Below are positions 601-19,670 of a DNA stretch of 20,000 bases, piece after piece. How positions within the stretch are numbered: the stretch's first letter is position 1; every line of letters begins with the position of its first letter. The position numbers were made by a program, and so were the translations under genes. Under the pieces are notes generated by a model. That model was not told the DNA's origin and ran no database searches. It saw nothing but the letters and a program-made list of their open reading frames with translations. The stretch is from an uncultured virus (IMG/VR IMGVR_UViG_3300032227_002278) (lineage: Duplodnaviria > Heunggongvirae > Uroviricota > Caudoviricetes): IMG/VR virus record IMGVR_UViG_3300032227_002278, one strand, 5' to 3'.

Positions 601-654
601 AATTACGATAATTCAAAAGACTGTTCTTTTAGGTGTAACACAAAGGAGTAAGTT

Positions 655-1113
655 ATGCAAATTACACTCATGCGTGGTCTTCCTGGTTCTGGCAAGTCTT
701 TTATAGCCAATAACATGGAAGGAACAGTACTATCCACCGATGACTTCTTCACCACAGAAGGTGGATACGATTTCGAGCCTACCCAAATCGGTCAAGCTCA
801 CGCTTGGAACCAACAAAGGACAGAAACTGCCATGATGAAGGGAGATTCCCATATCATCGTGGATAATACCAATATCATGTTCTGGGAAATGAAACCCTAT
901 ATCCTCCTCGCTGAAAAATATGGATATGAAATCGAATGGGTAGAAGCCCAATCCGAATGGGCTTGGAATCCAGAAGAATGCCATAAAAGAAATAAACATG
1001 GCGTTCCCCTAGAAGTTATACAGACAATGTTGAATAAGTACCAGAAATTGCCCAAACAAGGGGCTAAGGAAGCTATACTCACCGCTAAGGCTCCTTGGGA
1101 GGGGCAGGTATGA
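655..1113 (+). CDS. P-loop kinase, AAA_33 / N4BP2-like polynucleotide kinase family
   Basis: Walker A MRGLPGSGKS, plus STDDFF, AHAWNQ, IIVDNTN, WEMKPY and RNKHGVP motifs; AAGGAG RBS. Confidence 0.85.
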   Translation: MQITLMRGLPGSGKSFIANNMEGTVLSTDDFFTTEGGYDFEPTQIGQAHAWNQQRTETAMMKGDSHIIVDNTNIMFWEMKPYILLAEKYGYEIEWVEAQSEWAWNPEECHKRNKHGVPLEVIQTMLNKYQKLPKQGAKEAILTAKAPWEGQV

Positions 1114-1340
1114 AAATAGGTATTAAATGTCATGGAAACTCTTGGTATTCATGGCAGACTAATTCATTTGGTGACCTAAGCTGTTTTCATTGGCAGTATA
1201 CTACTGATTATGCACCTTATAATAAGTGTTTCCGTATGAATGCTGGCAAAGGGCATCCTATATTAGAGGTTTCGGTATCATCCATGTTCTCGAGAGATAC
1301 ATTAGGGATTAATTTGAAAACCTACAAAAGTAGAAGGTAA
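1110..1340 (+). CDS. hypothetical protein
   Basis: ATG at 1110 overlaps the TGA stop of the kinase (ATGA coupling); 76 aa. Confidence 0.6.
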   Translation: MKIGIKCHGNSWYSWQTNSFGDLSCFHWQYTTDYAPYNKCFRMNAGKGHPILEVSVSSMFSRDTLGINLKTYKSRR

Positions 1341-1350
1341 GATTTTGGGG

Positions 1351-1378
1351 TTGACTGTGGTTGGTTTAGTGATATAAT
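1351..1378 (+). promoter_or_regulatory. sigma70-type promoter for the tRNA cluster
   Basis: TTGACT (1351-1356), 16 nt, TATAAT (1373-1378) with extended -10 TG; 11 nt upstream of the tRNA 5' end. Confidence 0.75.
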
Positions 1379-1423
1379 GATTTTCTGTAGGGCTCTTAGC
1401 TCAATTGGTTAGAGCAAACCGCT

Positions 1424-1930
1424 TAAAAGGAGGAACCCTAAACAACAAATGTCGGATTGTGTACTTCGGCATGGCAATTCATACAGAGAAGTTGACATTT
1501 TTCAGCTTCATCTACAAGTTTTTGCCATTTTCTGTTGGAACACGAACGAATGTCAAGATTAAAGCTTTTTACTGATGGATCGAGATGATGGAATGAAAGA
1601 GCTGCATAGTTCTTTTTATATCCACAAATTTCACATGATCCACCTTTGTTTTTAGCTAATTCGATTTTTCGTAAGTGCCCACGGTTTTGCTGGCATACAT
1701 AAGTTTGATATTTGCGGTTTGTATGATGATTTTTACAGTATTCAGAGCACCATTTGCGCTGGTTTCCTGTTAAATCTTTATTACAAGTTCCGCATGTTGC
1801 ATGGGTTTCTTTTGAAGGGCTACTATTTGTTTCCATATGATTATGTAGTTATTCATAATCATTTTTTGGAGACTTTTAGTAAAATCTGTCAAAGTCGGTG
1901 AACCCTGTAAAATGGGAATACCGAGCCAAG
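1424..1930 (+). mobile_element. 5' part of a group I intron (P1-P6), with an HNH ORF in the probable P2 loop
   Basis: GTCAAAGTCGGTGAACCCT (1888-1906) and TGGGAATACCGAGCCAAG (1913-1930) are identical to the intact intron at 9324-9342 and 9347-9364. P7, P8, P9 and the omega-G are absent. The 5' splice site follows U33 or U34. Confidence 0.75.
1438..1836 (-). CDS. HNH endonuclease (probable homing endonuclease), antisense to the intron
   Basis: GGSCEICGY...LSFHHLDP...KCQLLCMNCHAEVH HNH/zinc motif; N-terminal CxxC...WCSEYC; the only convincing minus-strand gene. Confidence 0.9.
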   Translation of the reverse strand: METNSSPSKETHATCGTCNKDLTGNQRKWCSEYCKNHHTNRKYQTYVCQQNRGHLRKIELAKNKGGSCEICGYKKNYAALSFHHLDPSVKSFNLDIRSCSNRKWQKLVDEAEKCQLLCMNCHAEVHNPTFVV

Positions 1931-1982
1931 AGCCCAAATAGATAGTTGAATTGACTTAACTTTGTGGTTATTATTATATCAT

Positions 1983-2055
1983 GCAGAGTGTGCTCGACGG
2001 TATTGAGCAGCATCCTTATAAGGTGCCACAAATGGTCCGACTCCATTACTCTGCA
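1983..2055 (+). tRNA. tRNA-Ile (anticodon TAT), non-canonical
   Basis: Acceptor GCAGAGT/ACTCTGC, D stem GCTC/GAGC, anticodon stem GCATC/GGTGC, loop CT-TAT-AA (2017-2019), T stem AATGG/CCATT. G at position 8 and T loop TCCGACT are atypical; no encoded CCA. Confidence 0.8.
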
Positions 2056-2063
2056 ATGTTATA

Positions 2064-2148
2064 GCTATCGTGGCGGAACAGGCAGACGCAACAGACTTAA
2101 AATCTGTCGGGATTATATCCCGTACCAGTTCGATTCTGGTCGATAGCA
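2064..2148 (+). tRNA. trnL: tRNA-Leu (anticodon TAA), intronless
   Basis: Acceptor GCTATCG/CGATAGC, anticodon stem ACAGA/TCTGT, TAA at 2098-2100, long variable arm CGGGA-TTATA-TCCCG, T arm ACCAG-TTCGATT-CTGGT. Confidence 0.95.
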
Positions 2149-2160
2149 TTATAATCCTTC

Positions 2161-2340
2161 CAGAATAAGTTATTTTCTGCCCAAGCAAGGGCATCCTACA
2201 CCTACACCTACACCTACACTAAATCAGCCAATAAAAAAAATCCGAAACTTTTAAAGGACAAGCAGAATAAGTTATTTTCTGTCCTAGTAAGGGCATCCTA
2301 ACTTCGCCGTTAAAATCTGTGCAAGAATAAGTTATTCTTG
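2161..2340. repeat. Intergenic repeat cluster downstream of the tRNAs
   Basis: 38-bp direct repeat at 2161-2198 and 2263-2300 (3 mismatches); (CCTACA)x4 at 2195-2218; perfect inverted repeat CAAGAATAA-G-TTATTCTTG at 2322-2340. Confidence 0.85.
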
Positions 2341-2475
2341 GGGTTGAGTGGGGGAATGGAAGAAGGCTCCGGCTCGCAACCGGAACTTTTTTAACTGATT
2401 TTGAATATTTGATCCGATAATGGAATTACGATAATTCTGAAGCGTATTCTTTTTGGTGTAAGGCGAGGAGGAAAA

Positions 2476-2913
2476 ATGCCAATAATCGAAGGTGTGATTA
2501 GATATTACGAAGAAGATGAGTTTGTTGATAAGGTAGAGTGGCTATATCAACAAAAGCATATCAACAAGGATGGTTTCTTCATTGATAAGGATGGTAATTG
2601 CATATCAACAGATGTAGATTCAAATGTTGATAGAGATACACTTTGCATATCAATACCATATGGAGAATACCAGAATCTTTCAATCAAGGATTTGGTTGTT
2701 CCTCGTTATGGCGGGGTAATAACAGAGATTGATAATATGAATGCCAAGGTTTCATATGATGGCAATGAAGATGAGTATAACTTGATTGATTGGGCGAAGG
2801 AACATTTGGTTATTGAAGATGACCATCCTAATTTCAACGAGATTGTTATAGATATTTTTCTTGATGACCACAGGGAATGCGATAAACCAACAAAGGAGTT
2901 TAACAATGGATAA
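2476..2913 (+). CDS. hypothetical protein (acidic)
   Basis: 145 aa; GAGGAGG RBS; follows the element copy at 2424. Confidence 0.8.
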   Translation: MPIIEGVIRYYEEDEFVDKVEWLYQQKHINKDGFFIDKDGNCISTDVDSNVDRDTLCISIPYGEYQNLSIKDLVVPRYGGVITEIDNMNAKVSYDGNEDEYNLIDWAKEHLVIEDDHPNFNEIVIDIFLDDHRECDKPTKEFNNG

Positions 2914-3277
2914 AGATGTATTGCATTTTAAGAGTTTGAATAAACTGGCATCAAAGTTAATGATTACAGTTGCAAATATTATGTTGGAACCATCGGGGGA
3001 AACAAATACCCGTGTTTCTGTAGCTAACCTTTGCCAACAGCTATCTGAGAAAGAAATGTATTTTGAAAGAATCAAGAAGATTATTCTTGATTTTTTCAAT
3101 AAAGAGCATGATGATAAAGACTATAATCTTGATGAAGAAAAAATTGACAATCTTATCAAAAAGTTGATTAAAGAAATCAATACAGTTACTCAAATCTCTT
3201 TAGCAGCTCATGATAAGCTTGATATGTATTGGGATGATGAGACACAAGACTTTGTTTTCAAAAGTAAAGGAGAATAA
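2906..3277 (+). CDS. hypothetical protein
   Basis: AAGGAG RBS before ATG 2906 (MDKDVLHF...); 123 aa. Confidence 0.75.
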   Translation: MDKDVLHFKSLNKLASKLMITVANIMLEPSGETNTRVSVANLCQQLSEKEMYFERIKKIILDFFNKEHDDKDYNLDEEKIDNLIKKLIKEINTVTQISLAAHDKLDMYWDDETQDFVFKSKGE

Positions 3278-3282
3278 CAAAG

Positions 3283-3582
3283 ATGTCCGCAGCAATGATG
3301 AATGAAGAAGTTGAAGGTAAAAAAGAAAATAGGAAGCGTCTAATCAAGGAAACTGAAGTAGCAGATGCTCTTATGGCTATAGTTGGAAATCCAGAAAGAT
3401 TCGTAAGTTGCAAGGCTCATCATATTAATGAGTCTTGGTATCGTGTTAATGTAAGAAGTTTTAAAGATGAAATTTCCGGTCTTATTAAACTAACCACAGT
3501 ATGTAATTCTTACTTTGTATCATTTAGAGATGGTAAGTTTATAGAAGGAGATGAAGTAATTAATCTATATCCTATTAAGTAA
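3283..3582 (+). CDS. hypothetical protein
   Basis: 99 aa; AAGGAG RBS; tightly packed with the upstream gene. Confidence 0.75.
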   Translation: MSAAMMNEEVEGKKENRKRLIKETEVADALMAIVGNPERFVSCKAHHINESWYRVNVRSFKDEISGLIKLTTVCNSYFVSFRDGKFIEGDEVINLYPIK

Positions 3583-3606
3583 TAGACTTATTAGGGTGTT
3601 GTACCT

Positions 3607-3647
3607 AAGCTTGTCCTATCCTTATTATGTGGTAGGGCAAGCTTTTT
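3607..3647 (+). terminator. probable intrinsic terminator
   Basis: AAGCTTGTCCTATC / GGTAGGGCAAGCTT stem ending in a T-run. Confidence 0.55.
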
Positions 3648-3718
3648 GAATTACGATAATTCTGAAGGCTGTTCTTTTAGTTGTCGCCGTGGTGGTGACA
3701 AACGGAGGATTTAAGAAT

Positions 3719-5146
3719 ATGCGTTATCTAATGATTGAGAATCCTGGTGTTGCTCCTGTTGAAGGCTATACTTTGTTTGGTGGAACTACTAAGCGGGAAG
3801 CTACTGATAAGCGTATTATTGGAACATTTGGTTCTGGTAACAAGCATGGTATTGCTGTTGCTTTACGCCAGAATGTTCCACCTGTTGTCTTCTGTGGTAC
3901 TCAGAAGATGTCTTTCTTCACTCAACCTAAGACCATTAAAGGTGTAGGTAGCAGTGTAGAAGTTCAACAGATTTGTGTAAAATATGGTGGCAAGTGCAAT
4001 ATTACTGGTAAGACTACTACCAGCGAGAAAGAGCTTGACCAAGCTCTGGAATATGGTGCTAAGGATTGGCAAGAATTGTCTCTTGCTTTGAGAGAGTTTG
4101 TATCTAATGCTATCGACGCTTGTTATGAGCAAGATTTGTCTCATAGCGATGTTGTTGTAGAGATTGTTGACGAGAATCAAGTAAGAGCTAAGAGTGGTCA
4201 TACTCGGGTATTCATCCCTGCCACAATGGAAGTGCAGGAGTTTAAGAAAGATTTAGGAAAGTGGTTTCTTCACTTTTCTGAACCGGAAATGCTTACTCAG
4301 TCTGTCTTTCTTAAGAAAGATCGCAATCGTAAAGAATCTCGTAATGCGGTGATATATCGCCGTGGGGTTTTGATTCGTGAGTTTGGGAATGAAGAGCATA
4401 GCAGTCTCTTCGATTACAATATCGAAGATTTGCAATTGAATGAAAGCCGTCAATCATCTGATTGGGATTGTCGCTATCATGCGTCAAAGGCTCTTATCAA
4501 CGCTAATCGTGAAATTGCTACTGTATTCCTCAAATCTCTTATTGATAGGAGTGAGAAATGGGAATCTAGCTTCGATGGCAGCTACTTAGTTTGCTCTTGG
4601 GAAAATAAGGAAGTTATAGAGAAGCGTAGCAAAATTTGGCAAGATGCTATCGAAAGCCTGCTTGGCGATAAAGGATGCTTTACTAGCACTACATTGATGC
4701 AGACTGTATCTGGTAAAGGATATATTCCTGTTATCGTCAATGAAGGTTATCATAAGTTTTTCAATACTTTGAAATTGAATACAGATAGTAAGATACTGAG
4801 TGAGCATGATTTAAATCAAAGAGACATACTTCCAGCTACTAAAGCTGTAGTGTATTGTCTTGATGATATCTGGAGTAAAATTGACTTGGTTAATCTTACT
4901 CATGGTGAGAAGAAGCCTAGTGTTTATTGCTTCCGTCAACAGACGCAAGCTGCTGCAACAACACTTGGTTTTTGGAAAGGCGATGATATCTTCATCAATG
5001 TTGATATTGCTGAAGCTATTACCGACCAGCTCCGTGATACAATTGTTGAAGAACTTTGTCATCACATCACTAAAGCTACCGATGGTAGTCGTGACTTTGC
5101 CAATTGGCTAATTCGCTTTGCTGTTGAGATGAGCAAAGCTATCTAA
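3719..5146 (+). CDS. GHKL (HATPase_c-like) ATPase with permuted motif order and a C-terminal zincin-like segment
   Basis: GGAGG RBS before ATG 3719; 475 aa; motifs IENPG, IGTFGSGNK, ALREFVSNAIDA, GHTRVFI; C-terminal TIVEELCHH...DGSRDF. Confidence 0.7.
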   Translation: MRYLMIENPGVAPVEGYTLFGGTTKREATDKRIIGTFGSGNKHGIAVALRQNVPPVVFCGTQKMSFFTQPKTIKGVGSSVEVQQICVKYGGKCNITGKTTTSEKELDQALEYGAKDWQELSLALREFVSNAIDACYEQDLSHSDVVVEIVDENQVRAKSGHTRVFIPATMEVQEFKKDLGKWFLHFSEPEMLTQSVFLKKDRNRKESRNAVIYRRGVLIREFGNEEHSSLFDYNIEDLQLNESRQSSDWDCRYHASKALINANREIATVFLKSLIDRSEKWESSFDGSYLVCSWENKEVIEKRSKIWQDAIESLLGDKGCFTSTTLMQTVSGKGYIPVIVNEGYHKFFNTLKLNTDSKILSEHDLNQRDILPATKAVVYCLDDIWSKIDLVNLTHGEKKPSVYCFRQQTQAAATTLGFWKGDDIFINVDIAEAITDQLRDTIVEELCHHITKATDGSRDFANWLIRFAVEMSKAI

Positions 5147-5148
5147 TG

Positions 5149-5182
5149 CTAGAGGGGGATATATTCCCCCTTTAGTTTTTTT
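5149..5182 (+). terminator. intrinsic terminator
   Basis: CTAGAGGGGGA-TATAT-TCCCCCTTTAG followed by T7, directly after the stop codon. Confidence 0.8.
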
Positions 5183-5206
5183 GTTTTATTCCTTGGGGGT
5201 TGTACA

Positions 5207-5482
5207 ATGGTTGATGGAGACGGGATTTTTACCAAGTTGAGAGTGAAGGACAAGACAGGTGCTTTTATCTCCAAGGAAGAATTGGAAATTGAAGTTGAAG
5301 CAAGGATGAATGAAAGCGATAAAGACCCTGCGTGGGTATGTAAGATTCGTTTTGCTGAGGATGGGATTCATCATGAGATATATTGGGATGGTAAGTTTGC
5401 TGGAAGAAAGATTCAATCATATTCGACTTTTGAAGGGGTTTTAGACTCTAACTTTTGCACAATTGCTGGTGATTTTATTTAA
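5207..5482 (+). CDS. hypothetical protein
   Basis: 91-aa ORF in the co-oriented gene run. Confidence 0.65.
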   Translation: MVDGDGIFTKLRVKDKTGAFISKEELEIEVEARMNESDKDPAWVCKIRFAEDGIHHEIYWDGKFAGRKIQSYSTFEGVLDSNFCTIAGDFI

Positions 5483-5494
5483 AGGAGAACAACT

Positions 5495-5701
5495 ATGAAA
5501 TCGGTTATTCATCTTCGGAAGTGGATTGCAGAACAATTGAAACAAGTTGATGGTAATGATGATGTAAATCATGTTCTTAGATATATTCGTAGAAAAACAG
5601 ATCATCCATGTTATACGGAAGATGAAGTTATTTTAGAACAATGGAGATCTTTTTTGTCTGAGATTGATTGTTATGAAATTTTGAGAACTGAATTACGATA
5701 A
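5495..5701 (+). CDS. hypothetical protein
   Basis: AAGGAG RBS; 68 aa; the last codons ELR* are supplied by the repeat element. Confidence 0.75.
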   Translation: MKSVIHLRKWIAEQLKQVDGNDDVNHVLRYIRRKTDHPCYTEDEVILEQWRSFLSEIDCYEILRTELR

Positions 5702-5758
5702 TTCCTTGTCTCTTTCTTTTAGTTGTCGCCGTGGTGGCAACTAATTATAGGAGTATTT

Positions 5759-6133
5759 ATGGCTCATCCTTATCATCATTCATTAAGTTCTGTTAAGAAG
5801 TTTGGCGGAGTTCCCCAAGACTACGAAAAAATTCATTCTTGGTTTGATGAAACCAAGTCGCATTTTGCCGATTTTAGGCATCGTGCATTGCGTCATCATT
5901 CATTGGGCATATTTTGGTGTGAAGAGAAGTTTGGTATTACTATAACCAATTCTGACGGCAAGGAAGTTCCTGTTCGTTTAATTGGCGAACAGCACGTCCG
6001 TGAGGATTGTGGTAAGATTCCCAGTATTCAAGACTGGTTTTCACAGATTAAGCCAGCTCGTTGGATGGGAGAACCGCCTGTCAAACTGGAAAGGGTTTTG
6101 GAAGAATCTTCCGAAGTTGTGGAATTACGATAA
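5759..6133 (+). CDS. DUF6915-like protein
   Basis: AGGAG RBS before ATG 5759; MAHPYHHSLSS...IHSWFDETK...RHRALRHHS...IGEQHVREDCG.IPSIQDW matches DUF6915 as recalled. Confidence 0.8.
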   Translation: MAHPYHHSLSSVKKFGGVPQDYEKIHSWFDETKSHFADFRHRALRHHSLGIFWCEEKFGITITNSDGKEVPVRLIGEQHVREDCGKIPSIQDWFSQIKPARWMGEPPVKLERVLEESSEVVELR

Positions 6134-6187
6134 TTCCAGACCTCATTCTTTTAGGTGTCACCGGGGTGGTGACAAGGAGGAACTAAA

Positions 6188-6502
6188 ATGTTTGGCGAAC
6201 CTATCTTTTCTTATACCGCTCAAGATGCTTTAGATGATGGGGTGTTTCAGCAACCTTTCCCCAAGGAATATCCTGGTGTACTGCTTACAGAGGCTGTAAG
6301 CACGGCTTGCTTAACTAAAAATGATGGAAGGACATTTAACCAATGCGCCTTTCCTCTGGTTATGGACGCTGTAATGGCTGTTCAAGCCAAAAAGAATCCC
6401 AAAGATGGTTTCTGGAAGCTGGAAGAAACTGTCGCTGGAACTGTTTGGATTTTTCCAAATGAGTTTGGTTCTATCACAATTATGAAACCAGAGGAATATT
6501 GA
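6188..6502 (+). CDS. DUF6573-like protein
   Basis: FGEPIFSYTAQDALDDGV N-terminus and ITIMKPEEY C-terminus; AAGGAGG RBS. Confidence 0.7.
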   Translation: MFGEPIFSYTAQDALDDGVFQQPFPKEYPGVLLTEAVSTACLTKNDGRTFNQCAFPLVMDAVMAVQAKKNPKDGFWKLEETVAGTVWIFPNEFGSITIMKPEEY

Positions 6503-6678
6503 TGGATATTGTATATGTTGAATATGCTCCCCTTAAAGAGTATGAGGTGACTTATACTCTCAAGGGGAAGAAGTATCAAGATGTTGTCCGAGCAAACTCT
6601 AGCACAGATGCTAGAGAACTTGTTAAGACAAGATATAAAGATGCTCGTATTATTTCAGTTAGGGAAACAAAGAAATAG
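6502..6678 (+). CDS. small hypothetical protein (58 aa, absent from the ORF track)
   Basis: ATG overlaps the upstream TGA; MDIVYVEYAPLKEYEVTYTLKGKKYQDVVRANSSTDARELVKTRYKDARIISVRETKK. Confidence 0.65.
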   Translation: MDIVYVEYAPLKEYEVTYTLKGKKYQDVVRANSSTDARELVKTRYKDARIISVRETKK

Positions 6679-6686
6679 GAGGATAT

Positions 6687-6767
6687 ATGGGGTTTGCAAT
6701 TGGTGTTGTAGCTGGTCTTGTTTTTATTGCAGCATTAGGAAATATAAAAGTTGAGGAAAGGAATTAG
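6687..6767 (+). CDS. putative 26-aa membrane peptide
   Basis: AGGAGG RBS; MGFAIGVVAGLVFIAALGNIKVEERN; exactly fills the gap to the next element. Confidence 0.5.
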   Translation: MGFAIGVVAGLVFIAALGNIKVEERN

Positions 6768-6817
6768 ATTACGATAATTCTGTAGTATAGTCTTTCAAGT
6801 GTTAAAAGGAGGAAAAA

Positions 6818-7369: not shown

Positions 7370-7380
7370 GTGTGACAATT

Positions 7381-7839: not shown

Positions 7840-7863
7840 GTTTTTTTTCTTGGAAGAAACGAC

Positions 7864-7892
7864 TTGTTCCAGACTTTGTCCTATGATATAAG
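7864..7892 (+). promoter_or_regulatory. possible sigma70-type promoter
   Basis: TTGTTC, 17 nt, TATAAG with extended -10 TG; upstream of a structured leader. Confidence 0.4.
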
Positions 7893-7900
7893 TGTGAGCT

Positions 7901-7956
7901 ACCTGGTGCGAGGTTGTGTTTAGTAATCGGACGCACCTTATCCGATTGCAATACAA
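7901..7956 (+). ncRNA. putative structured leader RNA (two hairpins with complementary loops)
   Basis: ACCT-GGTGCG-AGGT and GTAATCGGA-CGCACCTTA-TCCGATTGC; the loops GGTGCG and CGCACC are complementary. Confidence 0.4.
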
Positions 7957-7971
7957 GGAAGTGAGAAGACG

Positions 7972-8346: not shown

Positions 8347-8368
8347 GGTTTGATATAAGTTGACAAAG

Positions 8369-8397
8369 AAAGAGGCGGGGAAACCCGCCTCTTTTTT
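8369..8397 (+). terminator. intrinsic terminator
   Basis: AAAGAGGCGGG-GAAA-CCCGCCTCTTTTTT. Confidence 0.9.
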
Positions 8398-8445
8398 ATT
8401 ACGATAATTCTGAAGCCTATTCTTTTCGGTGGAAGGAGTAAACCG

Positions 8446-9248: not shown

Positions 9249-9517
9249 GCGCCCTTAGCTTAATGGATAAAGCCACGGTCTTCGATATAGGAGCATTGTA
9301 AGAGAAATCTTATAATGAATTGCGTCAAAGTCGGTGAACCCTTAGCTGGGAATACCGAGCCAAGCCTGGAAACAGGAAGGTGTAGAGAGTAGACGACGCA
9401 GGTCTTAACAGGTAATGCTGAAGACCAAGGTGTACTCCAGACCACAAACCGAAAGGGTAGCGAAAGCTATAGTGGTAAGCTAAACCGTAGATAGAGGTTC
9501 GATTCCTCTAGGGCGTA
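9249..9517 (+). tRNA. trnR: tRNA-Arg (anticodon TCT) interrupted by a group I intron; exons 9249-9282 and 9480-9517
   Basis: Joined exons give acceptor GCGCCCT/AGGGCGT, anticodon arm ACGGT-CT-T|CT-AA-ACCGT and T arm AGAGG-TTCGATT-CCTCT. Confidence 0.9.
9283..9479 (+). ncRNA. group I self-splicing intron (IC3-like), 197 nt, no ORF
   Basis: P1 CTT|C:GGAG with U.G at the splice site; P2 CATTGTAAGA-GAAA-TCTTATAATG; P3 TGCGTC/GACGCA; P7 GAGTA (9387-9391)/TACTC (9433-9437); P8 GGTCTT/AAGACC; GAAA-looped P9 region; terminal G at 9479. Confidence 0.92.
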
Positions 9518-9581: not shown

Positions 9582-9830
9582 ATGTTTGTGATTCGTGTGT
9601 CTAGGGGATCTTTAAACTATGTAGCTGGTTTTTCGGAGAATCATCAAGTGGTGGTTTTCTGCGAAGAATTGGAAGAAGCTAAAGTTTTCAATACTTATCA
9701 ACAAGCATTAGGATGGGTATCTGATTATACAGATGTTGGTTATGGATTTGAATTGAAAGATGTTAATTGTATTGTGAATATGAATGAGAATACTTCTGAA
9801 AAGTATCTGAATACGATTCTTCAATTGTAA
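9582..9830 (+). CDS. hypothetical protein
   Basis: AAGGAGG RBS before ATG 9582; 82 aa. Confidence 0.75.
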   Translation: MFVIRVSRGSLNYVAGFSENHQVVVFCEELEEAKVFNTYQQALGWVSDYTDVGYGFELKDVNCIVNMNENTSEKYLNTILQL

Positions 9831-9894
9831 TTACGATAATTGCAAAAGTCTTTGTTTTAGGTGTCGAAAAGGTTTCTACTAAAAGGAGAATAAA

Positions 9895-10491
9895 ATGAAA
9901 CCCGGTTTGTTGTTGTTCCGCAAGTTCGGTGAGCGAGTTGTCGTTGGTGATTCTGTAGTGGTCGCCCCGGAATTTCCTGTAACCTTTTTTATGATGGATG
10001 GCGTTGTTCATAGCTTGTCATATATTCTAGATGACAATGATATTGAAAATGCTATTATCCCACAGGGCACAAAGGATTGGTGTTGGGTTTTAGGGGGAGA
10101 ATCCTTTAGAGAAGATAGCTGCACATTGCATCTGGTTCCTGTCAAGTCTGTTGGAACTGTTGGAACTGTTGGTGTTCTTGACAAGGCTACTATGAAACTT
10201 TCTCTTGTTAAGGGAGAAGAGGTAGTTATACCAGAGTGTTTTGGGAAGAAGGTTAGCTTCTCTCACAACTCTGTAATGGTAAGCATGGATATTATGGATG
10301 CCCATAATAAACCAGAAGCATCTACCGAAATGTATTGTGATGTTAATTCAACCATGCCCATTCTTGCACCAAATGGTGTCAAGTTTGAAGTTACAGTTGA
10401 ATCTTTCAGAGGTGTTGCTGGTTGTAGTATCCGATTCAACGCAGAACAAGATACAAGTATCATGCGTGAAGAATTGCTTACTAGAGCATAA
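9895..10491 (+). CDS. CsrA/RsmA-like protein with a large internal insertion
   Basis: N-terminal LLLFRKFGERVVVGDSVVV and C-terminal FEVTVESFRG...SIRFNAEQDTSIMREELL resemble the two halves of CsrA. Confidence 0.55.
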   Translation: MKPGLLLFRKFGERVVVGDSVVVAPEFPVTFFMMDGVVHSLSYILDDNDIENAIIPQGTKDWCWVLGGESFREDSCTLHLVPVKSVGTVGTVGVLDKATMKLSLVKGEEVVIPECFGKKVSFSHNSVMVSMDIMDAHNKPEASTEMYCDVNSTMPILAPNGVKFEVTVESFRGVAGCSIRFNAEQDTSIMREELLTRA

Positions 10492-10814: not shown

Positions 10815-10921
10815 ACAATACAATTTGTGTTCTGGAATAAAATCTTGAACATGAATTACGATAATTACAGATCCTGTTCTTTTAAGTGTCGCTGTGGTGG
10901 TGACAACCAAGGAGGTGCGTT

Positions 10922-11315: not shown

Positions 11316-11324
11316 GAGATTCAA

Positions 11325-11696: not shown

Positions 11697-11764
11697 AATT
11701 ACGATAATTTCTCAGCCCATTCTTTTAAGTGTCGCCGGGGTGGCGATAACCAAGGAGGTGCGTT

Positions 11765-12088: not shown

Positions 12089-12138
12089 CATTCCCTTATC
12101 AACATGTCGTCTAAACACTTTTTAATAGGAGTTTTACT

Positions 12139-12837: not shown

Positions 12838-13068
12838 TTAACTTTACATATCAACAATCAAATAATAATAAGATATATTGTTATTTAATTGTTATTTGAT
12901 TGTTATTCTATTGTTATTTTATAAGCTATAACTTATTATTTTTAAGTTGTAACCAATAATAACAATTATATAACTATAACTTATTGTAAAATTATAATAA
13001 GTTATAGTTATAAACTTAATTTGATAATAAGAATATACTATTTAGCTATAGTATTTACCTAATAACTA
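12838..13068. repeat. very AT-rich non-coding tract with 11-bp tandem repeats and inverted repeats
   Basis: ATTGTTATT at 12877, 12888, 12899, 12910; 17-bp perfect inverted repeat at 12969-12985/12996-13012. Confidence 0.8.
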
Positions 13069-13200
13069 AAGACTTCCTTATATAGAAGGTCTTCAGGGGT
13101 TGTACCAACAGCCCCCATATCAACAAACCAGAATTACGATAATTATAGACCCCATTCTTTTAAGTGTCGCCGGGGTGGCGAACAACAAAGGAAAAAGAAA

Positions 13201-13743: not shown

Positions 13744-13917
13744 TTGATATAGCCGATACAGCCATATAAACATGGCTGTATCGGCATTTTACATATCATC
13801 ATCTGTATATCAATATGATTATTCAAGGGTTGTACCAAAGGAAATCCAGAATTACGATAATTGCAAAGCCCATTCTTTCAAGTGTCACCGAGGTGGTGAC
13901 TAACAAAGGGGAATACA

Positions 13918-14130
13918 ATGCAAACTGAATACTTTGTGTGGGTCATGGATGAAAATGATAATGTTGTAAAGAGTGGTGTATGCTCAACCAAATATGAAGC
14001 TATCAGCTTCTCAAGGGTTCGCAGCAAAAAGTATAAGGCTACCCGTAGCCTTTGTGCTGAACATATCGTTGGAATGCCCAATGATAAGTATACCCTTATC
14101 TGGCAAGAACAAGTTACTATTGGTAACTAA
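13918..14130 (+). CDS. hypothetical protein
   Basis: Cassette ORF after element 13850; AAGGGG RBS. Confidence 0.8.
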   Translation: MQTEYFVWVMDENDNVVKSGVCSTKYEAISFSRVRSKKYKATRSLCAEHIVGMPNDKYTLIWQEQVTIGN

Positions 14131-14202
14131 GACTAATTACGATAATTCCAGACCACTTTCTTTCAAGTGTCGAAAAGGTTTCAACCAACAAAGGAGAATG
14201 CT

Positions 14203-14373
14203 ATGCAATCTTTTACCCCCGTCCGAAGCGTAATGTTCGTTGTCTCCTACAATGGAGATATGCTTTGGAAATACCCAACCAAAAAAGAAGCTGAAGAAGC
14301 TCTATGTTGGGCTAGCTGGAGATATAACTGGGCAGCTACCGATATGAAAATTGTTGAAGTAGTAAAGTTATAA
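14203..14373 (+). CDS. hypothetical protein
   Basis: AAGGAG RBS before ATG 14203; after element 14135; 56 aa. Confidence 0.75.
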   Translation: MQSFTPVRSVMFVVSYNGDMLWKYPTKKEAEEALCWASWRYNWAATDMKIVEVVKL

Positions 14374-14538
14374 CGATGATAGGTAGCTTCTTACATATCA
14401 ACATGGAGATAGTAAGCATATAACTTACTATCTCCATTTTCTTCCTTCAGGGGCTATAAAACAAACCCCGAATTACGATAATTCTAAACCCCATTCTTTC
14501 AAGTGTCGAAAAGGTTTCAACCAACAAAGGAGAATACT

Positions 14539-14757
14539 ATGAACGAGTCAACTGTGATTACTGGTGCAGACAATATCGCCGCTTTTCAGATTATTCGTCT
14601 GTATCACGCCCTGAGATTGCAAGAGAGAACTGGCATGACATTGTCTGCCGGTTCTGTTATCAAGTATGTTAATACATATTACGGCGTGAAAGGTCGTACC
14701 GCTAAAAAAGTAGCGGATAACCTGAAACTGAAGTATCCAGATATTCTTAGTCATTAA
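14539..14757 (+). CDS. hypothetical protein
   Basis: AAGGAG RBS before ATG 14539; after element 14471; 72 aa. Confidence 0.8.
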   Translation: MNESTVITGADNIAAFQIIRLYHALRLQERTGMTLSAGSVIKYVNTYYGVKGRTAKKVADNLKLKYPDILSH

Positions 14758-14923
14758 GAATATCTGGATACTAAAGGATATATCGAAAGATATATCCTTT
14801 AGTATTAACTTACTTCAGGGGTTGTACCAACAGCCCCCATATCAACAAACCAGAATTACGATAATTACAAACCACACTCTTTCAAGTGTCACCGAGGTGG
14901 TGACAATCAAACGGAGAACGATT

Positions 14924-15331
14924 ATGAACGATATCATCAGAACCGCCCTTTCCAAGGCGTACACGCCAGTCAATCCTCTTGCACCTGGTAAATACCAAGT
15001 GAAAGAGCGTATCACCTTGGAGATAGAAGGAACTATCACCAAAGGGGCAGACCAAAGCCGTGTCCCAACTGTTGATATTCCCTGGAAGAAAGTATGCGCC
15101 CACCTGGCTGAAAAGCTAGGCTGCGTAGGGGACGCTGCTATCAACCAACTCACGGATGCTATCCGTGATGCAATGAATAACAACAAGGATAAAGATACGG
15201 CTATTGAAAGCCATATCAAGAACCTTGAATCTGCTACCAAGAAAGTTGAATCTTTCTTGGGACAGCTTCCACCAAAGACTGTCAGCGGAAGAACTTCCGT
15301 TGATGTAGTAGTTAGAGAGGTTGCTCTCTAA
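14924..15331 (+). CDS. hypothetical protein
   Basis: GGAG RBS before ATG 14924; after element 14854; 135 aa. Confidence 0.85.
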   Translation: MNDIIRTALSKAYTPVNPLAPGKYQVKERITLEIEGTITKGADQSRVPTVDIPWKKVCAHLAEKLGCVGDAAINQLTDAIRDAMNNNKDKDTAIESHIKNLESATKKVESFLGQLPPKTVSGRTSVDVVVREVAL

Positions 15332-15486
15332 CTATAAAGGGGAATATAGAAAGCTATATTCCCCTTTATCAAATTACTTCAGGGGTTGTACCAACAGCCC
15401 CCATATCAACAAACCCGAATTACGATAATTCTAGACCCCATTCTTTTAAGTGTCGCCAAGGTGGTGACAAACCAAGGAGGTGCGTT

Positions 15487-15744
15487 ATGGAAGAATGCTG
15501 CGATTACTGCCAGGCGGACGATGTAACCACAGAAGAGGTTTATGGAAAAAACCTCTGCGAAGACTGCCAAGACCTCGAAATGGCAGGCGAATTAGAAGAC
15601 TTCATCTTTGATGATGAGGATGATGTAGATTATGATAAAAAACCTTATTATCATTGGGAAGATGATGAGGAAGATGATGAGGATTATGGCGATTGGGAAG
15701 ATGACGATGACGATGATGATGATGATGATGATAGTCGCCATTGA
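15487..15744 (+). CDS. CxxC/CxxC zinc-finger protein with an extremely acidic tail
   Basis: CDYC...CEDC followed by a D/E-rich C-terminus; AAGGAGGT RBS. Confidence 0.8.
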   Translation: MEECCDYCQADDVTTEEVYGKNLCEDCQDLEMAGELEDFIFDDEDDVDYDKKPYYHWEDDEEDDEDYGDWEDDDDDDDDDDDSRH

Positions 15745-15894
15745 TATCAAAGGATAGCAGACTCTAGTGGTCTGCTATCTCATTCTTCTTCAGGGGTTGT
15801 ACCAACGCCTCCCATATCAACAAACCCGAATTACGATAATTACAAAGCCCGCCCTTTTAAGTGTCGCCAAGGTGGTGACAACAGGAGAACGACA

Positions 15895-16092
15895 ATGGAA
15901 AACCTTCGTGCTAATACACTTCTCATGATGTGCCGCAAGGCTTTCATGAAAGGTGTCGCAAATATCAAACTCAATCCCAATGGTATCACTCCAGAAGAAC
16001 TGGAAGCTACCGCTAAAAAGTTGGGAATGGGATATCACAAAGTTAGCAACTTGGAAGTTAAGCTATACCGCAATAGCCGCCCACAAAGCTAA
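15895..16092 (+). CDS. hypothetical protein (basic)
   Basis: AGGAG RBS; after element 15829. Confidence 0.8.
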   Translation: MENLRANTLLMMCRKAFMKGVANIKLNPNGITPEELEATAKKLGMGYHKVSNLEVKLYRNSRPQS

Positions 16093-16158
16093 TTACGATA
16101 ATTCCAGACCACTTTCTTTCAAGTGTCACCGAGGTGGTGACTAACAAAGGGGAATACA

Positions 16159-16506
16159 ATGCGAGCTTATCCTAAGAAACTGCTTTCTTTTTTCGACTGG
16201 AACCAACTACTGGGTAAACGGACTAGTAAGAAGCTAGCCAATAATACCTATGTCGAAAAAATCGATAGCAATACCATCGGTATTCGCTACCACCGCACCC
16301 ATGTAGTCCAAGTGCGATCAGATGATACCTATCGTCTGACCACTAATGGCTGGACTACTCCCACCACCAAGGTGCGGTTAAATAAATATAGCCCGCTCAA
16401 TATCTGGCAAAAGAACTTCGAATGGTTCTATAACCACAATGGGGAAGATAAATCCTTCTTCGATGGGATTGTGGTAGATAGGGCTGGTAATCCAGTCTCT
16501 GTCTGA
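16159..16506 (+). CDS. hypothetical phage protein
   Basis: 115 aa; YHRTHVV...LTTNGWTTPTTKVRLN; after element 16091. Confidence 0.85.
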   Translation: MRAYPKKLLSFFDWNQLLGKRTSKKLANNTYVEKIDSNTIGIRYHRTHVVQVRSDDTYRLTTNGWTTPTTKVRLNKYSPLNIWQKNFEWFYNHNGEDKSFFDGIVVDRAGNPVSV

Positions 16507-16648
16507 TTATAAAAGGGTGTGATAGAGATATCACACCCTGTATCTTTACTTGCTTCAGGGGTTGTACCTTTCCATATCAACAATTACGATAATTACAAAC
16601 CACACTCTTTCAAGTGTCACCGAGGTGGTGACAACAGGAGGTTTCACA

Positions 16649-16849
16649 ATGCCAAACGACCTGCCCGAAGACTGGTATCTTGACCAGTCCTACGAAGACC
16701 GATATAGCTATGATGAACCATCAGAACCAGATGATTACTGGGCTGATGGCGATGCCCTAGCGTCTGCAGGGCATGGCATGGACGAAGATTACAACGGCTA
16801 TGACGATTGGGATGACTCTGAAGCAATAGATTGCGATGCAGAGTTTTGA
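16649..16849 (+). CDS. small, highly acidic protein
   Basis: AGGAGG RBS before ATG 16649; DGDALASAGHGMDEDY; 66 aa. Confidence 0.8.
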   Translation: MPNDLPEDWYLDQSYEDRYSYDEPSEPDDYWADGDALASAGHGMDEDYNGYDDWDDSEAIDCDAEF

Positions 16850-17010
16850 TATCTAGAGACTAACTAGGGATAATAATCCTATCCCTAGTTAGCTCATTCT
16901 TCTTCAGGGGTTGTACCAACGCCTTCCATATCAACAACCCCGAATTACGATAATTCCAAACCCCATTCTTTTAAGTGTCACCGAGGTGGTGACAAACGGA
17001 GGAGTTGACA

Positions 17011-17250
17011 ATGCAAAATGAAATCGAACACCTTCCACCCGCACAACCCCTTGACCAGGAATGTGAGTGCTGGTCTTGGAAAAAAATGAATGGTAAATGG
17101 ACTTGCGAACATTGCGGGTCTACCACTTCATTTGCTGAATCCGATTGCGGATTCTCAGATGATGATAACGATTCTGATATCGATGGATATCATGATCATT
17201 GTTCCGAGGTTGCATTTTATAGCAACCGCCATCAATTCGATGGCGAGTAA
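17011..17250 (+). CDS. small Cys-containing (zinc-ribbon-like) acidic protein
   Basis: GGAGG RBS; CEC...WTCEHCG; after element 16943. Confidence 0.75.
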   Translation: MQNEIEHLPPAQPLDQECECWSWKKMNGKWTCEHCGSTTSFAESDCGFSDDDNDSDIDGYHDHCSEVAFYSNRHQFDGE

Positions 17251-17317
17251 TTACGATAATTCCAAACCCCATTCTTTTAAGTGTCACCGAGGTGGTGACA
17301 AAACAACGGAGGTTTCT

Positions 17318-17557
17318 ATGTCTTATCATCGCACCGCTGACCGCCTGTTTGATGCCTGCCTTCTCGACCTTTATCCAGACGCTGGTCCCGTCTGGATGGA
17401 TTTTGGTATCGACGAACGAACCTTCCCCGCCTACCAAAGAGCGGTAAAAACCGGGAAGGTCACCGCAGACCAGCTACACAAAGCTGTATGCGACGGCAGA
17501 AAACTATCCGCCCTCATCGGAGTGGAAGTTAAAACAATGTTTGATATGTTCGCCTAG
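17318..17557 (+). CDS. hypothetical protein
   Basis: GGAGG RBS before ATG 17318; after element 17249; 79 aa. Confidence 0.8.
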   Translation: MSYHRTADRLFDACLLDLYPDAGPVWMDFGIDERTFPAYQRAVKTGKVTADQLHKAVCDGRKLSALIGVEVKTMFDMFA

Positions 17558-17706
17558 GACATATCAACACAGGAGATAGTAACCACTATCTCCTGTGCTA
17601 TTAACTTACTTCGGGGGTTGTACCCTTCCATATCAACAATTACGATAATTCCAAACCACATTCTTTCAAGTGTCACCGAGGTGGTGACAAACAAAGGAAA
17701 AAGACC

Positions 17707-17910
17707 ATGCCATATCTCACTGTTACCCCTGCCTACGGGCGTGATTATAAAACCAAAAAAGAAGCTGTACACGCATGGGAAACTGGCAAAGACTTCCAAG
17801 TGCAATCTATTTTTGATAGTGGATATATCAATAAAGCAGATGCACAACCTGGCACTACTGTTAATATCCGATATAAACGGATGACACAGATTGCAGTAGT
17901 AAAAGTTTGA
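17707..17910 (+). CDS. hypothetical phage protein
   Basis: VTPAYGRDYKTKKE...GKDF; after element 17638. Confidence 0.85.
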   Translation: MPYLTVTPAYGRDYKTKKEAVHAWETGKDFQVQSIFDSGYINKADAQPGTTVNIRYKRMTQIAVVKV

Positions 17911-18061
17911 TATATAAGAGTATAGACTAATGTCTATACTCTATCTTCTATATCAACGGGGGTTGTACCAACGCCCCCATATCAACAAACCAGAATTACG
18001 ATAATTCCAAACCACACTCTTTCAAGTGTCACCGAGGTGGTGACAAACAAAGGAACAAACA

Positions 18062-18256
18062 ATGCACGAATCAACAATCAAGACCCTCTTCACACTGCGT
18101 GAAAACGCCACCAGCGAAAATAACGCTGTATGGCGCAAAGCCTTTGAAAAGGCGGATTACGACCTCTGTAAAAAGATTACAGATAATCTGGCTAAGATAG
18201 ATGATGCTATCTTCGCTGCTATCCGCAGCCTAAGAAACGATAGCATGTCTTTATAG
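18062..18256 (+). CDS. hypothetical protein
   Basis: AAGGA RBS; after element 17994. Confidence 0.8.
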   Translation: MHESTIKTLFTLRENATSENNAVWRKAFEKADYDLCKKITDNLAKIDDAIFAAIRSLRNDSMSL

Positions 18257-18400
18257 CCAGATAGCACTAGCTAGGACTATTGAGTCCTAGCTAGTTTAAC
18301 TTACTTCGGGGGTTGTACCCTTCCATATCAACAATTACGATAATTCCAAACCACACTCTTTCAAGTGTCACCAAGGTGGTGACAAACAAAGGAACAAACA

Positions 18401-18610
18401 ATGAATATGCTTCGTAACGCTGCTTTTTTCCTTTTCGGTATCGCCCTTATCTGTCTGGTTGTATTCGGAGAAGGGTATATCTTGGGCGCACATATCCATG
18501 CGCCTGAGATAACTCAAGGCATCAACTGGAATATGCACTTCTTCTTCATGGGAGTCGTGTTCCTAACAGGATGCCTTAGCTTACTGAATCTATCAGTAAG
18601 TAAAAAGTAA
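18401..18610 (+). CDS. small membrane protein (2 predicted TM helices)
   Basis: Two hydrophobic stretches; after element 18333. Confidence 0.75.
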   Translation: MNMLRNAAFFLFGIALICLVVFGEGYILGAHIHAPEITQGINWNMHFFFMGVVFLTGCLSLLNLSVSKK

Positions 18611-18686
18611 ATTACGATAATTATAAATACCATCTTTTCAATTGTCACCACAATGGTTGTGGTGATAAACAACGGAGGTTTTTGAT

Positions 18687-18923
18687 ATGGAAAGCTATGG
18701 TTTCCTTGGTTTCGCTACCGAGCCGGTTGCAAACGATAATGGGGTATATCACTCCCCAGATTACCTTGCAGACTGGTTGTCTGCACATGGCGACCGCTAT
18801 GGCGGTAAGTACGCCATCTTTCATGAGATGGGTCACGATAAGCTCAAAAAGCTTATCGATAAAGAAGGTATCACCAATTGGGGTGATGCATGGGACTGGG
18901 CAGCTAAACGCCCACTAGGCTAA
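18687..18923 (+). CDS. hypothetical protein
   Basis: GGAGG RBS; after element 18610. Confidence 0.8.
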   Translation: MESYGFLGFATEPVANDNGVYHSPDYLADWLSAHGDRYGGKYAIFHEMGHDKLKKLIDKEGITNWGDAWDWAAKRPLG

Positions 18924-19130
18924 TATAAAGCTAGATATGGATATGGAAACATATCCATATCCAGCTTCCATATCATTAAGGGGTTGTACCATACAGCCAG
19001 AGTCTCAATCCCTGAATTACGATAATTACAAACAGGCTTCTTTTAAGTGTAACAAGTTTACCACAGTGGTAAACAAGTTACTTTTCGAAACTCGCAACCG
19101 GCTAGGCGCAGGTTGCTATCGGAGGCTATC

Positions 19131-19352
19131 ATGCAAAATATCACTTTCCGCAAAACTTCCCGTGGCTACATCGCTTCTTTCGATGGTGTCAGAAGCAAGC
19201 CCTCAAAAACAAAAAGGCAGGCTGAAATCAGCTTGAACAAAAAGCTAGCAGAAGCCGAACTCAGCGATGCAGGTAGACTGCATGCTGGATTCTCCATGCT
19301 AGAGACATCTGAAGACCATGCCGAGACATGGGACGCTAACTGGACCCTGTAA
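19131..19352 (+). CDS. hypothetical protein
   Basis: GGAGG RBS before ATG 19131; after element 19015; 73 aa. Confidence 0.8.
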   Translation: MQNITFRKTSRGYIASFDGVRSKPSKTKRQAEISLNKKLAEAELSDAGRLHAGFSMLETSEDHAETWDANWTL

Positions 19353-19391
19353 GGGTCTAGTTGGACACCAGCGGGTGCTATCGCCCGCTGG

Positions 19392-19511
19392 TTGTCTCTA
19401 TCATTACTTTCTTCAGGGGTTGTACCCTTTGTTTGTCTCTATCATTACTTTCTTCAGGGGTTGTACCCTTTGTTTGTCTCTATCATTACTTTCTTCAGGG
19501 GTTGTACCCTT
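19392..19511 (+). repeat. 41-bp tandem repeat, about 2.9 identical copies
   Basis: TTGTCTCTATCATTACTTTCTTCAGGGGTTGTACCCTTTGT at 19392, 19433 and 19474 (last copy 38 bp). Confidence 0.95.
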
Positions 19512-19670
19512 CCATATCAACATGGCTTATCAATATGGCATATCAACAAAGTGAATTACGATAATTACAAACAGGCTTCTTTTAAGTGTAACAAGTTTAC
19601 CACAGTGGTAAACAAGTTACTTGGTTCGGCGGGTTTGACTGGATATCACCCGCTATCGGAGGCTACTACA

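What the first reader, a model, noticed from the sequence alone, without database searches (positions are those of the whole stretch)
601..19589. 27-copy bipartite element with a dyad core and fixed 11-bp spacer: a probable uncharacterised phage promoter/operator system
Seen: AATTACGATAATT (dyad AATTA-CGA-TAATT) is almost invariant. It is followed by 11 variable bases, then TCTTTYAAGTGT. All copies are on the + strand, mostly about 50-75 nt before an ATG with an RBS. It differs from the ordinary sigma70 promoter at 1351-1378, so two transcription programmes appear to coexist. Inference: it is recognised by a phage-encoded sigma factor, RNA polymerase or dimeric activator, and marks an early regulon. 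TACGAT could alternatively act as a -10 hexamer. No cognate factor is in the window, and I do not recognise the motif.
Basis: partly seen in the sequence, partly recalled or inferred. Interest (0 to 1): 0.85.

Follow-up and report, generated by a model that had tools for sequence, protein, structure and literature searches.

The report
Private promoter of Planctomycete jumbo phage
A 36-base signal repeated 27 times before small genes of an uncultured freshwater phage is most likely a promoter read by the phage's own fast-evolving sigma factor, one of two private promoter types that related giant phages of Planctomycete bacteria use, and a spot where genes get swapped.

Summary
The 27 copies are real, all on the + strand, each leading an ORF. 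The best reading is a phage-specific bipartite promoter. The dyad lies at about -34..-22, TCTTTYARGT at -10..-1, and the start at the invariant T|G, where a covarying 5' hairpin begins. It is not a sigma70 promoter. Related jumbo phages, probably of Planctomycetes, punctuate the same small-gene region with two private classes: a short TGTACC class, calibrated by leaderless genes, and a bipartite class. The window has both. Its element sits in the bipartite slot before an orthologous gene, and its -10 block matches one relative's in register. In relatives the bipartite class precedes the gene of a divergent sigma70-family protein, the likeliest reader. That gene was not seen for this phage, and no transcript data exist. 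Close strains show gene gain, promoter loss and spacer exchange at copies, as in T4 PeSLs. Private phage-sigma promoters are known (SPO1, 7-11), and this scan noted similar cases on other DNA. My searches found no account of this motif, this sigma family or the two-class system.

The parts
601..636 (+). Bipartite promoter copy 1, no hairpin; abuts previous stop; leads AAA_33 kinase-like ORF 655
1351..1378 (+). Canonical sigma70 promoter TTGACT-16-TATAAT before the tRNA region (contrast case)
2424..2459 (+). Copy 2, no hairpin
3598..3605 (+). Class A box (GTTGTACC) in tandem before copy 3, the same A-then-B order as before the orthologous gene in G001 and G017
3649..3700 (+). Copy 3 with hairpin; leads the 475-aa ORF
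3719..5146 (+). 475-aa ORF of unknown function, used as clade marker; homologues in jumbo phages and Planctomycete islands
5199..5205 (+). Lone GTTGTAC box with no dyad copy after it
5691..5742 (+). Copy 4 with hairpin; the dyad supplies the stop codon of the upstream ORF
6123..6174 (+). Copy 5 with hairpin; a close strain has an extra gene between two copies here and a different spacer
6767..6802 (+). Copy 6, no hairpin; the promoter+RBS unit (57-59 nt) is absent in L036 and in contigs of runs X2, X5 and X6
8397..8432 (+). Copy 7, no hairpin; RBS follows at once, ATG 15 nt after the proposed start
9829..9880 (+). Copy 8 with GAA-AAGGT-TTC hairpin type; leads ORF with weak CsrA match
10854..10905 (+). 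Copy 9; in L038 identity to the window starts at the dyad
11697..11748 (+). Copy 10 with hairpin
13099..13183 (+). Class A box (33 nt upstream) plus copy 11 (13132)
13829..13901 (+). Class A box (21 nt upstream) plus copy 12 (13850)
14135..14186 (+). Copy 13
14471..14522 (+). Copy 14
14821..14905 (+). Class A box plus copy 15 (14854)
15385..15469 (+). Class A box plus copy 16 (15418); spacer differs in the 97%-identical strain L037
15796..15880 (+). Class A box plus copy 17 (15829)
16091..16142 (+). Copy 18, overlaps previous stop
16561..16633 (+). Class A box plus copy 19 (16582)
16910..16994 (+). Class A box plus copy 20 (16943)
17249..17300 (+). Copy 21, overlaps previous stop
17617..17689 (+). 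Class A box plus copy 22 (17638)
17962..18045 (+). Class A box plus copy 23 (17994)
18312..18384 (+). Class A box plus copy 24 (18333)
18610..18672 (+). Copy 25, TC shifted by one, longer hairpin
18983..19081 (+). Class A box plus copy 26 (19015); long hairpin whose first paired base is G34
19419..19508 (+). Three class A boxes in a 41-nt tandem repeat
19554..19620 (+). Copy 27, near-identical to copy 26

Best explanation
The element is a phage-private, two-block promoter ('class B') of a large phage that probably infects a freshwater Planctomycete. Host core RNA polymerase, loaded with a phage-encoded sigma70-family factor, reads ATTACGATAATT as the upstream block (about -34..-22) and TCTTTYARGT as the -10/discriminator block. 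It starts at the invariant G of T|G (position 34 of the element; 3 nt further on is possible). Most transcripts begin with a 6-bp hairpin, then the RBS. One promoter per one or two genes makes each accessory gene an independent unit, and the repeated copies also serve as homology patches for gene gain, loss and exchange. The likeliest reader is a member of a fast-diverging phage sigma family (L127 family, 290-370 aa), whose gene is led by class B in relatives, giving positive feedback. Shown: copy number, anatomy, hairpin pairing, positional and -10-block match to class B, the sigma genes in relatives, strain differences at copies.
For: Anatomy: in 34 copies (27 plus 7 from other contigs) TTT and T33-G34 are invariant. 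In 23 hairpin copies pair 34-50 forms in 22, 33-51 in 16 and 32-52 in 3; pair 37-47 occurs as A-T 11, G-C 7, G-T 5. The four copies without a hairpin have the ATG 15-20 nt after G34. Calibration: class A of relatives has a pyrimidine-purine step 10-11 nt after TGTAC (G001 purine in 96% of 57; G066 72 of 79), and 11 of 50 SD-less first ATGs in W01 sit at that gap; its start context is often AAGT|GT or GGGT|GT. Class B: G001 12+/0-, G017 3+/0-, G002 20+/3-, controls 0/0. A matrix from 25 G002 sites chosen by the upstream word alone scores best at window offset 24 of the 27 offsets tried (mean 2.8; background -14.1, sd 6.9). A bipartite element precedes the orthologue of ORF 3719 in G001, G017, G002, G003 and G004, with A-then-B order in G001, G017 and the window. 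The L127-family gene is directly led by class B in G001, G002 and G004 and by one B-like copy in W01. The family is sigma70-like by profile and fold, was found in 0 of 10 host MAGs, and has 199 clusters at E<=1e-30. The closest pair (G001/G002, 42%) shares GAACC. Shuffling. Host: 40 of 41 genome loci with the marker gene are Planctomycetota MAGs.
Against: No sigma gene of this phage was seen and no transcript evidence was obtained. The upstream block (TTACG or CGATAA) does not match GAACC, and if the CGA words are aligned the spacing is 4 nt shorter than in G002. In 4 of 8 records with an L127-family gene (G016, G019, G064, G066) the gene is led by a class A or A-like element and no class B was found; W01 shows no repeated class B in the about 200 kb read. 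G066, the closest relative by gene content (6 of 42 window ORFs), uses class A alone in its array (79+/5-). G003 and G004 are called class B by position and two-block build only; their sequences differ. Most of the other marker-gene loci have sigma70-type, class A or no clear element before that gene. Position 37 is also a purine in 34 of 34, so the start is uncertain by 3 nt.
Confidence: 0.6

Rival explanations
1. Same promoter and start site, but the 13-bp dyad is bound by a dimeric phage activator (a MotA- or CII-like role) that recruits a holoenzyme reading only the T-rich -10 block.
For: 12 invariant bases in 34 of 34 copies, while the spacer has 27 distinct forms and 50% mean identity, is more than one sigma-4 domain usually reads (general knowledge). 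The dyad is perfect and reaches to -22.
Against: With sigma70 the -10 would need the conserved A, present in only 17 of 27. The matching block in G001 is a loose dyad and in G002 no dyad. No candidate activator was found in 42 window ORFs.
Confidence: 0.15
2. One reading: the RpoD-like L125-family sigma, or a polymerase not detected here.
For: The L125 family occurs in G001, G002 and G004, which have class B; it is split over two frames in W01 and was not found in G016 or G019, which lack class B. Several of its genes are led by TATAAT-type promoters, fitting a first step of a cascade. G063, with a G001-like L125 sigma, has one G001-type class B site.
Against: G066 has an L125 sigma whose recognition helices are almost the same as G001's, yet 0 G001-type class B sites in 381 kb. 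These helices are sigma70-like and barely vary while class B varies. No RNAP beta or beta-prime over the cut-off in 5 relatives.
Confidence: 0.12
3. Host sigma70 promoter with TACGAT or GATAAT as the -10; the TCTTTYAAGTGT block and hairpin are then transcribed and act as a boxA/boxB-like antitermination site or an anti-SD switch.
For: Positions 14-15 are pyrimidine-purine in most copies and position 17 is a purine in 34 of 34. G018 uses ACGATAAT in TTGACA-16-GATAAT promoters. Island L157 has GGTACGAT in class A register. TCTTT would pair with the RBS in most folds. Four copies have TTGTAC 17 nt before TACGAT. The boxA likeness is recalled, not tested.
Against: No -35 (1 of 27 and 2 of 27 copies against a 13% background) and no TG extension. 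The 3' block matches the non-transcribed -10 block of G002 class B in register. Every gene having its own promoter leaves little need for antitermination.
Confidence: 0.08
4. The element is first a site-specific recombination site of an integron-like cassette array.
For: Strain differences map to copies. Planctomycete islands with related class A repeats carry a tyrosine recombinase.
Against: It has no paired 11-13-bp arms around a 6-8-bp spacer. Class B is also scattered singly through G001 from 57 to 272 kb. Breakpoints fall at different places in and around the element. No recombinase family was matched in 42 window ORFs.
Confidence: 0.05

Closest known systems
Phage-sigma promoters: phage 7-11 gp47 (GTAAtg-16-aCTA) and phiEco32 gp36 (tAATGTAtA); SPO1 gp28 middle promoters
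   Same: A private promoter read by host core RNAP with a phage sigma. In 7-11 and phiEco32, distant sigma homologues (15% identity) read unrelated bipartite or single-block promoters at similar genome positions (PMC8948821, passages). SPO1 switches from host sigmaA to gp28 (PMC13401047, passages).
   Different: Different sequence. Here the copies lead accessory genes at very high density (27 in 19 kb), often in tandem with a second private class, and the candidate sigma is a 290-370-aa family not tied to those phages.
PeSL cassettes of T4-type phages RB49/phi1, PST/T4, nt-1/KVP40
   Same: Repeated promoter + stem-loop + SD units in a hyperplastic small-gene region that mediate gene insertion, deletion and replacement (PMC2839356, passages; PMC4122927, abstract and first third).
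   Different: PeSLs carry consensus sigma70 promoters and terminator stem-loops between or over the -35/-10 boxes. Here the promoter is not sigma70 and the hairpin starts at the proposed +1.
Group 2 jumbo phages (no RNAP, phage-encoded sigma factors)
   Same: Relatives carry several sigma70-family genes, including a minimal gp55-like and an RpoD-like one, and no RNAP subunit was found (PMC7824862, passages).
   Different: The passages read name two sigma types and no Planctomycete host (0 occurrences). The L127 family is a third, fast-diverging type.
Autoregulated ECF sigma promoters (recalled; e.g. E. coli RpoE GAACTT-16-TCTRA)
   Same: Class B of G001 and G002 is GAACC-N15..17-TCT and stands before the sigma gene.
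   Different: The L127 family is much longer than an ECF and matches SigA/RpoD chains best. The window's upstream block is not GAAC-like.

Membership tests
Host sigma70 promoter | -35 TTGACA-like hexamer 16-18 nt before a TANNNT -10, or a TG extension | tested here: not met
   1 of 27 (TACGAT) and 2 of 27 (GATAAT) have a 4/6 match, background 13%; no TG extension
Host sigma70 promoter | Conserved A at the second position of the -10 hexamer before the T|G start | tested here: not met
   A in 17 of 27 window copies, 21 of 34 overall
PeSL | Repeats in a hyperplastic region of small ORFs, ending in SD and start codon | tested here: met
PeSL | Consensus sigma70 promoter | tested here: not met
PeSL | Indels or replacements between close strains at the repeats | tested here: met
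PeSL | Stem-loop acts as terminator; mini-circles form | not testable with these tools
   only contigs could be laid
Phage-sigma promoter | One orientation, fixed geometry, directly upstream of genes | tested here: met
Phage-sigma promoter | The same phage encodes a sigma factor | tested here: inconclusive
   none in the window; the rest of the genome is not held; relatives encode several
Phage-sigma promoter | Sigma-dependent transcription from the site | not testable with these tools
   needs in vitro transcription or TSS mapping
Class B of this phage group (defined here) | -10/start block TCTTYYWDGY|G in register | tested here: met
Class B of this phage group (defined here) | Upstream GAACC block 15-17 nt before TCT | tested here: not met
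   the window has ATTACGATAATT there
Phage RNA polymerase promoter (phiKZ/AR9, T7, N4 types) | Phage-encoded RNAP | tested here: inconclusive
   no PF00562 or PF00623 match over the cut-off in 5 relatives; the PF00940 search rang in no control; divergent RNAPs could be missed

The most novel reading that the evidence does not exclude
Planctomycete jumbo phages run an undescribed two-tier private transcription system. A conserved short TGTACC promoter, not sigma70-type, is also used by integrative islands in Planctomycete chromosomes, where no L127-type sigma was found, so these islands may be satellites switched on by the phage's signal. A second, bipartite class co-evolves with a hypervariable phage sigma family, giving many orthogonal sigma/promoter pairs. 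The window holds a lineage in which the bipartite class has taken over the accessory array and its upstream block has become a perfect dyad.
Probability: 0.3. Interest if true: 0.75.

Novelty: new variant of a known kind. Interest (0 to 1): 0.52.

Why it matters
It turns an anonymous repeat into a testable sigma/promoter pairing in phages of a phylum for which my search found no paper naming a phage. The L127 family has at least 199 sequence clusters; if each reads its own promoter, it is a natural set of orthogonal transcription parts and a system for studying how sigma specificity changes. It could give phage-type expression tools for Planctomycetes. The class A promoter shared with host islands raises a direct question about helper-satellite signalling.

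Tried and rejected
No own genome is held. Exact element in IMG/VR: 31 single hits, none in an array; relaxed pattern: 24 single hits; -10 block plus hairpin: 0. GTDB genomes: 0. Named phages: only chance DNA hits. Rfam: only a tRNA above threshold. No RNA holder listed among 18 runs; this says nothing about expression. Contig ends of run X1 fall at copies, but that is expected from assembly at repeats, so it was not counted. Antisense sigma70 reading (TTGAAA-16-TATCGT): rejected because the TTG is not kept across copies. N4-type hairpin promoter, dif/Xer and attC readings: rejected on anatomy, from recalled consensus sequences. Helical phasing of the class A box (21, 32-33, 51-53 nt): suggestive, but relatives show other distances (33, 38-44, 60, 71-72). 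My interim cascade (L125 sigma reads class B) failed its test in G066. Class A as a host-wide promoter: at or below control outside the islands in 5 MAGs. Island protein L189:6068-6610 as a shared sigma: no homologue in other loci held. The single-subunit RNAP search was uninformative. PMC12619734 proved irrelevant. Supplements were not read; those of PMC7162821 may give a host for LR756511.
Full report
OBSERVATION. The window is phage DNA: tRNA genes, an HNH gene and about 40 short ORFs, few with any family match. The dyad occurs 27 times on the + strand against 1.4 matches expected; ATTACGATAATT is invariant and never on the - strand. Each copy leads an ORF and 10 overlap or abut the previous stop. 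Seven more copies lie on four metagenome contigs that do not match the window. The flank of one of them also occurs in the run that best holds the window, so the array probably extends beyond the window.

ANATOMY (position 0 = first base of the dyad). Over 34 copies, positions 1-12, 26-28, 33 and 34 are invariant; 17, 31 and 37 are always purines; the 11-nt spacer has 27 forms. In 23 copies a hairpin with a 5-nt loop follows. Pair 34-50 forms in 22, 33-51 in 16 and 32-52 in 3, and pair 37-47 changes between A-T, G-C and G-T. The two long-hairpin copies also pair first at G34. The four window copies without a hairpin put the ATG 15-20 nt after G34. This points to a start at T33|G34 with a 5'-terminal hairpin (inference); position 37 is an alternative. 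A sigma70 reading fails: no -35 before TACGAT or GATAAT (1 and 2 of 27; background 13%), and the A required in a -10 before G34 is present in 17 of 27. A second motif, GTTGTAC, occurs 16 times, all on +, and stands 21-53 nt before 13 copies.

RELATIVES AND HOST. No array of the exact element was found in IMG/VR or GTDB. The 475-aa ORF at 3719 gave 77 viral loci, the 595-kb phage LR756511 and 41 genome loci, 40 of them Planctomycetota MAGs. The host is thus probably a Planctomycete (inference), and the holders are freshwater runs where habitat is given. Many of these loci have plain sigma70 promoters before the gene. The jumbo records instead carry private repeats.

CLASS A. TGTACC-type elements form one-directional arrays: G001 60+/4-, G002 20+/7-, W01 7+/37- converging on one point, G017 58+/1-, G003 8+/3-, G066 79+/5-, all above controls; G016 and G019 have variants. 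A pyrimidine-purine step follows TGTAC at a fixed distance, and 11 of 50 SD-less first ATGs in W01 lie 10-11 nt after it. That is the signature of a promoter core at about -15..-11 with leaderless genes. The window's GTTGTAC box is a degenerate member.

CLASS B. G001 and G017 have GAACC-N14..16-TCTCTMGG (12+/0- and 3+/0-) and G002 has CCGAACC-N15..17-GTCTTCC (20+/3-), controls 0/0. G003 and G004 have other two-block elements. A matrix from 25 G002 sites picked by the upstream word alone peaks on the window's TCTTT block, offset 24 of 27 offsets tried, mean 2.8 against -14.1 (sd 6.9): TCTTCCWTGC|G against TCTTTYARGT|G. The orthologue of ORF 3719 is led by a two-block element in G001, G017, G002, G003 and G004, with A then B in G001, G017 and the window. 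The G001 upstream block and the window's dyad are both centred 18 nt before TCT. I therefore file the element as this lineage's class B, with a replaced upstream block.

READER. Four of five relatives encode sigma70-family proteins and none an RNAP subunit over the cut-off. One family (L127) matches SigA/RpoD chains by profile and by fold (pLDDT 84.6; Foldseek E 2e-6). It was found in 0 of 10 host MAGs, has 199 clusters at E<=1e-30, and its 8 members compared here are 15-42% identical. Its gene is directly led by class B in G001, G002 and G004, by a single B-like site plus class A in W01, and by class A or an A-like element in G019, G064, G066 and weakly G016. The closest pair shares GAACC. 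The alternative, the RpoD-like L125 family, co-occurs with class B but failed a forward test: G066 has nearly the same recognition helices as G001 and no such sites in 381 kb. G066 also counts against my reading in that the closest relative by gene content runs its array on class A alone.

SHUFFLING. In strains about 97% identical: an extra 136-aa gene lies between two copies at 6123 and the spacer is exchanged; the unit at 6767 is missing in L036 and in three runs; identity in L038 starts at the dyad of 10854; run X6 skips 17699-18401 between two copies (15 of 29 joints were shown). This is PeSL-like behaviour (PMC2839356), best explained by homology between copies.

COMPARISON AND NOVELTY. 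It works like the phage-sigma promoters of 7-11, phiEco32 and SPO1, and like PeSLs in genome plasticity, but it is not a PeSL because the sigma70 criterion is not met. Ten literature searches gave no account of the motif (5 unrelated papers, listing only), of TGTACCC in Planctomycetes (none among the 15 listed) or of Planctomycete phages by name (0 papers). The library lacks most subscription journals. Papers seen: PMC4122927 abstract and first third; PMC2839356, PMC8948821, PMC13401047, PMC7824862, PMC7162821, PMC11958385 and PMC12619734 passages only. Earlier notes of this scan describe similar private phage promoters on other DNA; sequence look-ups found nothing. ECF, boxA, MotA, dif and attC consensus sequences are recalled.

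VERDICT. A real feature and a new variant of a known kind. Promoter function is likely (about 0.85); the full reading with the L127-family sigma as the likeliest reader is about 0.6. Interest 0.52, resting mainly on the undescribed two-class system and sigma family that the element leads to.

Noticed in passing
L139-L179; G005:C107:41000-73000; G010:C10 and C18; G014:C8: Integrative islands in Planctomycete MAGs (tyrosine recombinase, RuvB-like ATPase, ArdC, HTH, often an ECF sigma; serine-recombinase-like ORFs by eye) carry arrays of class A elements or of a CCGACTGATGTC class (53 vs 4 control in G010), confined to the islands, and share small genes with the jumbo phages.
   Followed up: partly
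L142, L145, L147, L148, L159, L170, L174 upstream of the marker gene: A hairpin that would bury the RBS begins right after the CGACTGATGTC core, so only transcripts starting inside it should be translated, as recalled for some T4 late genes.
   Followed up: no
G001:C1:292987-293150; W01 about 19.1-20.0 kb; G066 about 322.5 kb; G016 about 371.8 kb: Class A arrays grow denser towards one end and in G001, W01 and G017 stop at head-to-head copies; in G001, G016 and G066 a C/G-run follows. Possibly a genome end, packaging site or origin.
   Followed up: partly
window 1385-1975 and 9249-9517: Two tRNA-like genes appear interrupted by related intron-like inserts, the first holding an HNH ORF (1438-1836, - strand); run X6 has forms that skip 1403-1930 and 9264-9511. 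ARAGORN and Rfam did not call them.
   Followed up: no
window 9895-10491: 198-aa ORF with a weak CsrA match at its N-terminus (E 4e-4, below cut-off); the element's hairpin loops are mostly RRGGT rather than the GGA that CsrA is recalled to bind.
   Followed up: no
L212, L215, L216; L213, L214: The L127-family sigma gene lies next to a RuvB-like-looking ORF in W01, G016 and G019 and after a ParB-like-looking ORF in G001, G002 and G016 (labels by eye).
   Followed up: no
window 3719-5146: The 475-aa marker protein has no Pfam match but shows GHKL-like motifs in unusual order and a C-terminal zincin-like motif (by eye); 815 homologues.
   Followed up: no
L091:7013-7600 (G019): A CRISPR-like array of 36-nt repeats lies near the marker gene in this phage record.
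   Followed up: no
window 12840-13060: An AT-rich, repeat-like gap before copy 11 with no ORF.
   Followed up: no
W01:C1:190508-191282: The L125-family sigma of LR756511 matches in two separate open frames.
   Followed up: no
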